A stretch of DNA of 64,000 bases from Escherichia coli O157:H7 (GTDB lineage: Bacteria; Pseudomonadota; Gammaproteobacteria; Enterobacterales; Enterobacteriaceae). Shown piece after piece: positions 1 to 3,000 of the stretch. The stretch's first letter is position 1. Each line of letters starts with the position of its first letter. Location: assembly GCF_013167455.1 (NCBI RefSeq), contig NZ_CP038328.1; one strand, given 5' to 3'. A program made the position numbers.

Positions 1-3000
1 CGATAATCACGCTGCGCCCCTTCGCCATCAGCCGGTTACCCATCGCCGCTGCAAGGTGATTTTTCCCGGTGCCGGTTTTACCGCTGAACACAAAATTCGT
101 GCACCCGGTCATCAGTTCGTCAGCTATGGATTTGGCCTGGCTCAGCGCGTATTTTTGCCCGTCGTTCTGCACCTGATAATTCGCAAACGAGCATTTGCTG
201 TGCAGAGGCTGGATGCCCGAACGATTCAGGATTTTTTCCACCCGCAACTGGTGATTCTGGCGGTTAATCTCCTCGCTGCGTTTTCGTCCTTCAGCAAGTT
301 GCCATTCCCGCCACTCCTCCACCGTCCGGTACGGTGGAACCGACGCCTGTGGTGCAAGTCTGCGAATACGTTCAAGAACCCCGGCTGCCGCAATGTTTTT
401 CATGCCACATCACCCCCTGAATCCCGGCGGAATTTCGGTATCCGGTTCAGAAATATGATTCACACAACGCTGGTTGTTCGTGCCGCTTACCGGGAGCAAC
501 CAGGGGTTTTCAAAATTCCGGTCCGGCCCAAAAAACGTCGTCGCTCGCTGAACAAATTCCGTTCCCGCTTTCCCGGTCGCCGCCAGGTATCTCGCGTAAC
601 GCCTCACACCATCCAGCATGGTCTCTGGTGGCACCCCCTCGCGCAATCTGGCCTTCCAGGCACTGAAAGCGGATTTCTTCGGGTTTGCCCCAGCACGCAA
701 CGGGTATTCCCGCCAGACCTGTTCGAACACATCCGGATAATCCACTCGTCCCACAGACTGCCCGGTGCTTTCCGGGACTACCCGATCGGCTTCCCGCTGA
801 ATGGCGGAATCGGCTTCAGGCTGCTGCAGTTGGTGTGATTGCTCCGACCCTGCGGTCATCACCTGCTGCACAGCGCCCGAATCGGCTTCCGGTGTCGTGC
901 CTGCTGGCTGACCAGGATTGACGGTCTGAACATCCCCTGCCTGGTTCGTGGTGTTTTTTTTGCCATGAACCATAGTGTTTTTGTCCTGTTCCTGTTCTTT
1001 CTCCTGCTCCTGTTCCTGTTCTTGGCTTCGAAGCCCCTTAAAAGCCCCTTCGAAGCCCCTTACCGAATTTCGGCTATTATTCCGCCTCACATCCAGATGG
1101 AAATCCGTTTTATATCTGTCGTAAAACACTGACAGAAAAGCGTTTTCAGGTAATGATGCATACTCATTCCTGACACCTGCACAACGGTTATCGCCAGGCT
1201 TCAACGTTTCCCCAACCTGCCAGGCTGCCATTTCATGGACCCAGACCATCTCTGCATCATGGTCATAGCTACAAAAACCAGCTTCAACAGCCCTTTTAAG
1301 CCCCTTTGAAGCCCCTTCCAGACCAAGCCCGGTTTCATGAGCAAGGTATAAAACTGGCAGGTAATACAAACCCAGCATATTTGCGTGAGGGGATGTCATC
1401 AGGTAAAAAGCAACAACTTGCGCTTCTGCACCCGCCTTTCTAAGTTCTCTCCCCGTTTCTCCCAGCCAGAATCGCGGAGAAACTTTTGCGTAATCACGCA
1501 TGGCTACCTCATCTGGTGCCGAACCTTCCTCCGGATATAATCTGTGGTTCCCAATCGACAGAACCAGAGGAGGTTCGACATGTATTTTTTGAAAAGCCTT
1601 TATCAGGCTCATGTATTAAATGTTGCAGCAACAAACCGCTGGTGTAACAGCCCCGAAATGCTCCCGGATTACAGAGCCTGGCTGCGCGCCGAAACATACC
1701 TTCGTCTCGACATATTGATTAGCGAACTTCAAAAAGAGACTGCATCCATTCATAACCTTCAGGGTATCGACGCTGTTCGCATTCTGGTATCGCGCCATAG
1801 TGCTCTCTCAATAATTGAAGTGCGTCATCTCTCTTTTTCTGAACTGATTTTCTTGCTTCAACCAGCTCTGGAATCAGCGAATATCCCGCCGGAAGTGATC
1901 CAATACCCACCTCATGTTGACGAGCAGTTACAAGATGTGCCATACAACCAGCGTGCTGGATTGACTCCCTGCTCAGAGGCTGAATGGGATCACTCTCTGC
2001 TGAAGAAATACCAAGATTTGTATAATCCTCAATAAGCCCGGCACACGCTTCTGCATCAGCCAGCTTTATTCTGGTTTCCTTGCGCTGTTCTCTGGCTGAC
2101 AAACGCCAGAGCAGCGCATTAGCTTTATGTATCAACCACTCTGCCAGCTCCACATCAGATAAACCGCCACGCCAGATGTGCGGACTGTTTTCGTAAACGC
2201 TCAGTGTCAATTTTTTGTCATTACTCATATTTATTACCCAATTAATGCACAGCCAGAGTGTTTCCTGCCGGGCCACCACGATTCATCTGATCGAACAGAA
2301 CGATCGCTGATGCAACGAAATCATCAATATCTTTCACCAGCCGTTCCTTCGTCTCTACCAACTCCCGAAAATAAGCGGAACTGTGGCTGCGCATTCGGGC
2401 CACCAGCGGAGGCGGCATCGCTTTTTCGATCGCTGGTAACAACGCCTGAATTTTTTTAACCGCATCAGGAGTGTCTTTCTCCACCCAGCGGAAAATTTTC
2501 TGAGTATTGCGAGCCATGGCTTCCGGATGGCTGTCGTCATACAGTTCCGGGAACGTCATTCCCAGCTCGAAATACGCTTTGGTAATTTTCGCAGCCGGTA
2601 CTTTTTCGCCGTCCGGATGCGCCCAGGCATTCATCGCCATGCGGATGTGTTCATGCTTGATTTTCATGAATCAACTCCGGCGCATTTGATGTGTTAACCT
2701 TACATCCAACAGGTAAACCGTCGGTTGGGTTAGGATAAATATCTGGGCGGATTTCATGCGGGGTAACTTCCCACTTCATTAGTTGGCATAACGGAATTAC
2801 CTGCTTTGGGGGAACGCCAAAGCTAAACCATTGCCAAACAGTCTGTTGAGCGACCCCCATATAACGACCTATTTCAGCCTGAGTGTATTTCTGCCTAATT
2901 TTTTCGCGAGTGCTATCTAGCATTTTGCCCTCCTCTAAAAACTATAAGCAAAGCCTACAATAAAAAACTGTATGCAATCAACAGTTTTTTATTGTGATGC

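What the first reader, a model, noticed from the sequence alone, without database searches (positions are those of the whole stretch)
984..1320. Iteron-like 11-bp-spaced direct repeats inside the replication initiator gene (candidate prophage ori)
Two clusters of AAGCCCCTT-type repeats (1031/1042/1053 and about 1288/1299/1310) recur at one helical turn spacing, next to a GAACAG hexamer tract, all inside the O-like gene. In lambda the origin is a set of iterons within O, bound by O protein. The repeats also encode repeated EGAxKGL peptide motifs, so the DNA and protein repeats are entangled.
Basis: partly seen in the sequence, partly recalled or inferred. Interest (0 to 1): 0.5.

Follow-up and report, generated by a model that had tools for sequence, protein, structure and literature searches.

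The report
Replication-origin repeats inside a prophage gene
A short DNA word repeated once per helical turn inside the replication-starter gene of an E. coli O157:H7 prophage is preserved as DNA rather than as protein, most likely marks where the phage starts copying its genome, and recurs in related phage genes in many bacterial phyla.

Summary
Five exact AAGCCCCTT copies plus one degenerate copy lie at 11-bp spacing in two clusters (1024-1063 and 1280-1319), next to a hexamer tract (984-1021). All sit in a 363-aa replication-initiator gene (410-1501, minus strand) upstream of a DnaC-like loader gene.

In 35 homologues retrieved by protein similarity (38-79% identical, 41-70% GC), the codons under the repeats are about 95% fixed, against 57% at other conserved columns. 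The base between units varies freely. In most homologues the second cluster is inverted, which changes the peptide from EGASKGL to EAPSKPL but keeps the DNA word.

The N-domain is predicted to be a winged helix. The best reading is an origin built from initiator-binding iterons inside the initiator gene. This works like lambda ori/O and pSK41 RepA_N, but the gene matches no Pfam family, including theirs. No binding or replication evidence exists.

Unexpectedly, the same tandem 9-mer occurs at equivalent positions in barely alignable initiator families, in genomes of 28-70% GC across many phyla. I found no description of it. Verdict: a new variant of a known kind, of moderate to high interest.

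The parts
410..1501 (-). Replication-initiator gene, 363 aa. It has an N-terminal winged-helix domain, a Q/E-repeat linker and a C-terminal domain shared with other phage initiators. The mechanical ORF runs up to 1612, but the true start is most likely the ATG at 1501.
   Evidence: PHROG 1701 'DnaD-like helicase loader' (E 1e-148) and PHROG 3729 'replication initiation protein'. No Pfam or NCBIfam family matches. RefSeq annotates 410-1501 as 'hypothetical protein' WP_001205823.1 in E. coli O157:H7. All homologues start at MRDY.
1280..1319 (-). Site A. On the coding strand it has two exact 11-bp-phased units (GAAGGGGCTTC, AAAGGGGCTTA), a degenerate third unit and a terminal GAAGC half-unit about 33 bp downstream. 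It encodes residues 62-68 (EGASKGL).
   Evidence: Codons are fixed in 35 homologues: GAA 33/34, GGG 33/33, GCT 30/34, AAG 29/29, GGG 29/32, CTT 32/34, with the spacer TCN free. These residues fall in helix 60-73 of the AlphaFold model, the third helix of the winged helix.
1024..1063 (-). Site B. It has three exact 11-bp-phased units on the coding strand and ends in CGAAGCC. It encodes VRGFEGAFKGLRS at the low-confidence end of the N-domain, immediately before the linker.
   Evidence: Site B is present in all 35 representative homologues. In 26 of the 35 the aligned peptide is the inverted form EAPSKPL, with codons GAA GCC CCT / AAG CCC / CGA AGC 91-100% fixed (CTT only 69%). A few homologues have mixed orientations. 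pLDDT is 56-58 here.
984..1021 (-). Hexamer tract (CAGGAA-type, 6.3 copies) encoding QEQEQEQEKEQEQ, followed at about 950-980 by an A-run on the coding strand. It is a candidate unwinding or loading region and/or a protein linker.
   Evidence: period 6. GC falls to 0.42-0.45 with strong strand asymmetry. In homologues this tract is about 10 GC points below the gene mean and 75-82% purine on the coding strand. The SQEQEQEQ peptide is nearly invariant in the family, but its codons vary freely between CAR and GAR.
2..403 (-). 5' part of the downstream DnaC-like AAA+ helicase-loader gene. The gene runs off the left edge of the window.
   Evidence: PHROG 50 'DnaC-like helicase loader' (E 3e-36). 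NCBIfam PRK12377 (E 8e-80) and the DnaC equivalog (E 4e-41) match, both below their cut-offs because the gene is truncated. RefSeq annotates it as 'ATP-binding protein'.

Best explanation
The two clusters of 11-bp-phased AAGGGGCTT units are cis-acting DNA sites (iterons) of the prophage's replication origin, written into the coding sequence of the initiator gene. Shown: the DNA word itself is under strong purifying selection, independent of the peptide it encodes and of its orientation. Inferred: after induction, the N-terminal winged-helix domain of the 363-aa initiator binds the units. Their one-turn spacing places neighbouring units on one face of the helix, which would allow side-by-side cooperative binding. 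The two clusters, about 256 bp apart, could be bridged by initiator oligomers. Also inferred: the complex destabilises adjacent DNA, most plausibly the purine-rich hexamer tract and A-run right after site B. The C-terminal domain would then recruit the DnaC-like loader encoded next door, together with host DnaB. The arrangement follows the logic of lambda ori/O and of RepA_N plasmids, where the origin sits at the boundary between the DNA-binding domain and the host-interaction domain, so that the origin and its reader travel as one module.
Against: No binding, footprinting or replication data exist for this family in anything I could search. No clear AT-rich unwinding element is present. GC dips by only about 10 points, and in the distant low-GC family the linker is not AT-rich relative to its gene. 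The units are short (9-11 bp), whereas the 19-bp lambda iterons and the 21-22-bp plasmid iterons in papers I read are longer. The same word is kept by initiators that are barely alignable. That is not what I would expect if each initiator co-evolves with its own iterons, and it leaves room for a different reader. Two lineages (L089, L113) lost site A.
Confidence: 0.7

Rival explanations
1. The repeats are read by a conserved host factor, or by another phage protein, rather than by the initiator's own winged helix. They would still be cis elements of replication or of its control.
For: The identical 9-mer is kept in initiator families with only marginal profile similarity (hhalign probability 26% and 9%). 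It occurs in genomes of 28-70% GC and in many phyla. In the distant A5 family the first site sits near the N-terminus rather than in helix 3. L113 changed the helix-3 peptide yet keeps site B.
Against: I know of no bacterial DNA-binding protein that is near-universal and has this specificity (my knowledge). No DnaA box lies nearby. The sites are essentially confined to genes of this initiator superfamily: 69 of 80 viral loci and 52 of 80 genome loci carrying the pattern.
Confidence: 0.1
2. The sites bind the initiator but serve copy control, autoregulation or handcuffing, while unwinding starts elsewhere in the prophage.
For: Iterons that act in replication control as well as initiation are described for iteron plasmids (my knowledge; one paper I read suggests a copy-number role for plasmid iterons). 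No convincing AT-rich unwinding element lies next to the sites.
Against: No other repeat array of this word exists in the window or in the flanks of 35 homologous loci. The position at the domain boundary matches two experimentally studied origins that lie within initiator genes.
Confidence: 0.1
3. The conserved DNA at the domain boundary is a recombination linker: microhomology that promotes exchange of initiator modules between phages.
For: N- and C-domains are shuffled exactly at the site B / linker boundary. CGAAGCC followed by a purine-rich hexamer repeat (CARGAR codons) follows site B in nearly all of the 35 proteobacterial-family homologues.
Against: This does not explain site A inside the folded domain. 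It also does not explain the 11-bp phasing, the multiple copies, or the conservation in either orientation.
Confidence: 0.04
4. The repeats act at the RNA level, through mRNA structure or long-range pairing between sites A and B that regulates translation.
For: Where site B is inverted, the A and B sequences are complementary in the mRNA.
Against: In the window and in about a quarter of the homologues both sites are direct, so no such pairing is possible, yet conservation is equally strict. The quasi-palindrome gives only 73% complementarity here.
Confidence: 0.03
5. The DNA repeats are only a by-product of a repeated protein motif (EGAxKGL), or arose by chance.
For: The peptide EGASKGL is highly conserved at site A, and the model places it in a helix of the fold.
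Against: Synonymous codons are fixed, including codons that are not the ones preferred at other columns of the same genes. Inverted copies encode a different peptide. Chance expectation is 0.5 copies per window and 1 per 137 kb.
Confidence: 0.01

Closest known systems
Phage lambda ori / O protein, and lambdoid Stx phages
   Same: The origin lies inside the initiator gene, between the part that binds the origin and the part that recruits the loader. It consists of direct repeats bound by the initiator, and extra repeats add amino acids to the protein (PMC7466680, read). The gene order, immunity region then initiator then loader, is the same.
   Different: No sequence membership: neither Pfam Phage_rep_O nor any other Pfam family matches. 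Units are 9-11 bp at 11-bp spacing in two clusters 256 bp apart, not four to six 19-bp palindromic iterons in one array. No distinct AT-rich tract is present. The partner is a DnaC-type AAA+ loader, not lambda P.
RepA_N plasmid initiators (pSK41 Rep)
   Different: No RepA_N Pfam match. This is a phage of Gram-negative hosts. One cluster (site A) lies inside the folded domain. The repeat word is G+C-rich rather than A+T-rich.
Phage replisome organisers / DnaD-like initiators (for example SPP1 G38P with oriL inside gene 38; recalled from memory, not checked here)
   Same: PHROG labels for this protein and its distant relatives are 'DnaD-like helicase loader', 'replisome organizer' and 'replication initiation protein'. 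The origin-within-own-gene logic is shared.
   Different: Pfam Phage_rep_org_N and DnaB_2 do not match. The repeat sequence and architecture are different.

Membership tests
Lambda-type origin (ori inside O) | Several direct repeats inside the initiator gene | tested here: met
   Five exact copies and one degenerate copy in two clusters within 410-1501.
Lambda-type origin (ori inside O) | Initiator belongs to the lambda O family (Pfam Phage_rep_O) | tested here: not met
   No Pfam family at E <= 0.001, and no O-family match even at E <= 10. No NCBIfam family matches.
Lambda-type origin (ori inside O) | Iterons are imperfect inverted repeats of about 19 bp | tested here: not met
   Units are 9-11 bp. 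They are only quasi-palindromic (GAAG-GGG-CTTC).
Lambda-type origin (ori inside O) | AT-rich unwinding tract next to the iterons | tested here: inconclusive
   GC is 0.42-0.45 at 940-1019 with strong purine asymmetry. Across homologues the drop is about 10 GC points. In the low-GC family the tract is not AT-rich relative to its gene.
Lambda-type origin (ori inside O) | Initiator binds the repeats, and the segment supports replication | not testable with these tools
   Needs EMSA or footprinting and an origin-plasmid assay.
RepA_N plasmid replicons | RepA_N domain (Pfam) | tested here: not met
   No Pfam match.
RepA_N plasmid replicons | Winged-helix N-terminal DNA-binding domain | tested here: met
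RepA_N plasmid replicons | Origin repeats lie in the DNA that encodes the inter-domain linker | tested here: met
   Site B and the hexamer tract encode the low-pLDDT segment and the Q/E linker at the module boundary. Site A, however, lies inside the folded domain.
DnaD-like / replisome-organiser phage initiators | Sequence membership | tested here: inconclusive
   PHROG 1701 at E 1e-148 and PHROG 6251 at E 2e-4, but Pfam DnaB_2 and Phage_rep_org_N are not matched. No PDB sequence match to the N-domain.
One superfamily with the distant carriers (A4, A5 families) | Detectable homology of the N-domains | tested here: inconclusive
   hhalign A3 vs A4: probability 26%, E 7e-4, over equivalent elements. 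A3 vs A5: probability 9%. Weak PHROG matches are shared.

The most novel reading that the evidence does not exclude
A single 9-bp origin word (AAGGGGCTT, phased at 11 bp, followed by a dipeptide-repeat linker) is shared by a whole superfamily of temperate-phage initiators across Proteobacteria, Bacteroidota, Clostridia, Bacilli, Nitrospirota, Desulfobacterota and others. That would make it a near-universal phage origin code. The initiator-iteron specificity may have been frozen because the site is written inside the initiator's own coding sequence, or the word may be read by a conserved host component. If so, co-resident prophages of this type could fire one another's origins.
Probability: 0.4. 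Interest if true: 0.8.

Novelty: new variant of a known kind. Interest (0 to 1): 0.62.

Why it matters
It would assign an origin and an initiator to a gene that RefSeq calls 'hypothetical protein'. A full-length copy is present in 469 of 5426 complete E. coli genomes, including O157:H7 prophages. The N-domain family is very large and has no Pfam model: 5547 cluster representatives at E <= 0.001.

It also gives an unusually clean natural experiment separating DNA-level from protein-level selection inside a coding region, because inverting the site rewrites the peptide.

If the same iteron really is read across phyla, three things follow. It challenges my expectation that iterons diverge together with their initiators. 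It predicts cross-activation between resident prophages, which is relevant to the induction and amplification of neighbouring virulence genes. And it offers a simple sequence signature for locating origins in uncultured phage genomes.

Tried and rejected
- Pfam, NCBIfam and PDB sequence searches of the initiator's N-domain found nothing. Pfam also found nothing for the distant families.
- The Eru papers on Stx-phage replication regions do not mention iterons, DnaC or this module.
- Full-text searches for the DNA words and the peptides returned only unrelated primers and sequences. Searches on POCJ13, replisome organisers and Acinetobacter prophages found nothing relevant.
- No DnaA box lies near the locus.
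- I looked for an AT-rich unwinding element and found only modest dips.
- The codon test on the Q/E linker is uninformative, because every synonymous change keeps CAR/GAR.
- I looked by eye for concerted variant words at sites A and B in divergent members and saw no clear case.
- The protein-only and RNA-pairing readings are rejected for the reasons given under rival explanations.

Full report
**What is in the sequence**

On the + strand, AAGCCCCTT occurs exactly at 1031, 1042, 1053, 1298 and 1309, and nowhere else in the 64-kb window. A degenerate sixth copy starts at 1287. Tandem Repeats Finder reports period-11 arrays at 1031-1062 and 1291-1317, and a period-6 array at 984-1021. About 0.5 exact 9-mers are expected by chance in the window (my arithmetic). 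The two clusters are 79% identical over 42 nt.

On the coding (minus) strand the unit is GAAGGGGCTTC, a quasi-palindrome (GAAG-GGG-CTTC). Because 11 is not a multiple of 3, successive units are read in different frames. This gives LEGASKGLK at one cluster and VRGFEGAFKGLRS at the other, followed by QEQEQEQEKEQEQ.

**The gene**

The ORF 410-1612 (minus strand) gives 400 aa. All homologues, however, start at MRDY, which is M38 of the ORF at nt 1501. RefSeq annotates exactly 410-1501 (363 aa) as 'hypothetical protein' in E. coli O157:H7, to which the query is 100% identical.

PHROGs place the protein in family 1701 ('DnaD-like helicase loader', E 1e-148) and family 3729 ('replication initiation protein'). 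Separate PHROG families cover residues 38-227 and 244-400, which indicates a two-module protein. Pfam and NCBIfam find nothing.

The next gene downstream (2-403, cut by the window edge) is a DnaC-like AAA+ loader. Upstream lie YdaT-like, Cro-like and repressor-like genes. This is therefore the replication module of a lambdoid prophage, but its initiator is not a lambda O homologue.

**Testing DNA against protein**

Protein searches retrieved homologues from E. coli, Shigella, Klebsiella and Acinetobacter phages and from two scans of viral contigs.

All 67 distinct close genes keep site A (gene nt 185 and 196) and site B (about nt 440-463).

I then took 35 representatives that are less than 80% identical to each other (pairwise 38-79%, loci 41-70% GC) and built a codon alignment.
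- Under site A the codons are almost fixed: GAA 33/34, GGG 33/33, GCT 30/34, AAG 29/29, GGG 29/32, CTT 32/34.
- The serine codon that spans the gap between units uses all four TCN codons.
- Invariant G, A and L residues a few codons away use three to six codons each.
- In 26 of the 35 the aligned site-B peptide is the inverted form, EAPSKPL. Its codons GAA GCC CCT / AAG CCC / CGA AGC are 91-100% fixed (CTT only 69%).
- Overall the modal-codon fraction is 0.95 under the units and 0.57 at 99 other conserved columns. For amino acids with four to six codons it is 0.93 against 0.46. Mann-Whitney p = 4e-9 and 4e-7.

The background columns come from the same sequences, so shared ancestry does not explain the contrast.

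**Orientation**

In PhiR5_2, POCJ13, the Acinetobacter phage and most of the diverse representatives, site B lies on the opposite strand, and a few homologues have mixed orientations. The peptide changes from EGASKGL to EAPSKPL or QAPSKPL, but the DNA word is unchanged.

The same alternation is visible in 150 family representatives that are less than 50% identical to each other.

In 137 kb of the 35 loci there are 103 exact 9-mers: 49 at site A, 52 at site B and 2 just upstream of the start codon. One is expected by chance.

**The likely reader of the sites**

An AlphaFold model of the N-domain (35-sequence alignment, pLDDT 87) has winged-helix topology: helix 25-36, strand 45-47, helices 50-57 and 60-73, strands 77-80 and 85-88.

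Site A encodes residues 62-68, at the start of the third helix. In this fold that is usually the recognition helix, but this assignment is my inference. Site B encodes a low-confidence segment (pLDDT 56-58) at the end of the domain, which fits its tolerance of inversion.

**Mechanism: what is shown and what is inferred**

Shown: the repeats are selected as DNA, in either orientation, at two fixed places in the initiator gene, and the second site always abuts a repetitive linker.

Inferred: the winged-helix domain binds the units, whose one-turn phasing puts them on one face of the helix. The two clusters may be bridged by initiator oligomers. Adjacent DNA opens, and the C-terminal domain brings in the DnaC-like loader with host DnaB.

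The unwinding site is uncertain. The hexamer tract and A-run at 940-1021 are only moderately GC-poor, though strongly purine-skewed. No DnaA box is nearby.

**Comparison with known systems**

Lambda's origin lies in the middle of O. It consists of 19-bp iterons plus an AT-rich tract, and extra iterons add residues to O (PMC7466680).

pSK41 Rep binds four Rep boxes inside its own gene through a winged-helix N-domain. The origin DNA encodes a dispensable linker, the C-domain contacts host primase, and both domains resemble DnaD (PMC5703833).

The present locus works like both but meets neither family's sequence definition. It also differs in unit length, in having two clusters, in the G+C-rich word and in the DnaC-type partner.

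**The unexpected part**

Fifty-four of the 80 loci returned were not recognised by the family profile.

These loci encode other small proteins from 30-46% GC phages (the A4 and A5 families), plus a few from about 60% GC contigs. All show the same plan: a site in the N-terminal part, then a second site, often inverted, directly before a dipeptide-repeat linker such as KD, MD, GI or EK.

Their PHROG matches are weak but are all to replication-initiator families. Pfam has nothing. Profile comparison with the E. coli family is marginal (probability 26% and 9%).

When the A5 family was retrieved by protein similarity alone, all 9 representatives carried site B, and some of them also had N-terminal copies of the unit.

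Carriers were found in alpha-, beta- and gamma-proteobacteria, Nitrospirota, Desulfobacterota, Polyangia, Bacteroidota, Ignavibacteria, Clostridium, Bacillus and others. Fifty-two of the 80 loci fall in recognisable family ORFs. About 9 chance hits would be expected in the whole 298-Gb collection (my arithmetic), and some hits do look unrelated.

The DNA word is therefore conserved further than the proteins can be aligned. I cannot explain this.

**Verdict**

I found no description of this word or this origin type in the literature I could search, and the gene is unannotated.

I class it as a new variant of a known kind: an origin made of iterons inside the initiator gene. The additional, unexplained feature is its cross-phylum invariance.

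Noticed in passing
window 1502-1612 (-): The mechanical ORF extends 37 codons upstream of the start used by RefSeq and by all homologues (ATG at 1501, preceded by GAGGT).
   Followed up: yes
window 413-490 (-), last ~25 residues of the initiator: The C-terminal tail (…NHISEPDTEIPPGFRG) matches the C-terminal tail of E. coli DnaT (primosomal protein I) in PDB 6aep, 2ru8 and 9zbt at E 2e-3 to 6e-3. This may be a shared contact with the helicase or loader.
   Followed up: partly
window 1580-2035 (+): A gene that RefSeq calls 'ECs1072 family phage-associated protein' lies antisense between the YdaT-like gene and the initiator gene, interrupting the rightward early operon.
   Followed up: no
window 3461-3939 (+): A relB/relE-type toxin-antitoxin pair sits next to the repressor-like gene in the prophage immunity region.
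   Followed up: no
L328 (Shewanella marisflavi) 6515-6622: An expanded array of at least ten 11-bp units, with the peptide SRGFQGAFKGL repeated. This is far more copies than in any other locus.
   Followed up: no
L117 gene nt ~447-483: Here the site-B units are spaced 12 bp apart (in-frame KGLG repeats) instead of 11 bp, so the phasing is not absolutely fixed.
   Followed up: no
L005 nt ~2470-2480 and L138, 27-38 bp upstream of the start codon: Acinetobacter-type relatives carry one extra exact copy of the unit just upstream of the initiator gene. These are the only exact copies outside sites A and B in 137 kb.
   Followed up: partly
L089 and L113, site A region: Two lineages have lost the site-A DNA word, and the EGASKGL peptide with it, but keep site B. 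This suggests site B is the core element.
   Followed up: partly
linkers after site B in the window (984-1021), the A5 loci (L408-L477) and the A4 loci: The dipeptide repeats differ between families (QE, KD/MD, GI). By eye, however, the underlying hexamers look alike (AGGAAC, AGGATA/TGGATA, AGGTAA/TGGTAT, roughly WGGWWN) and are purine-rich on the coding strand. This may point to a DNA-level role, but I did not test it statistically.
   Followed up: partly
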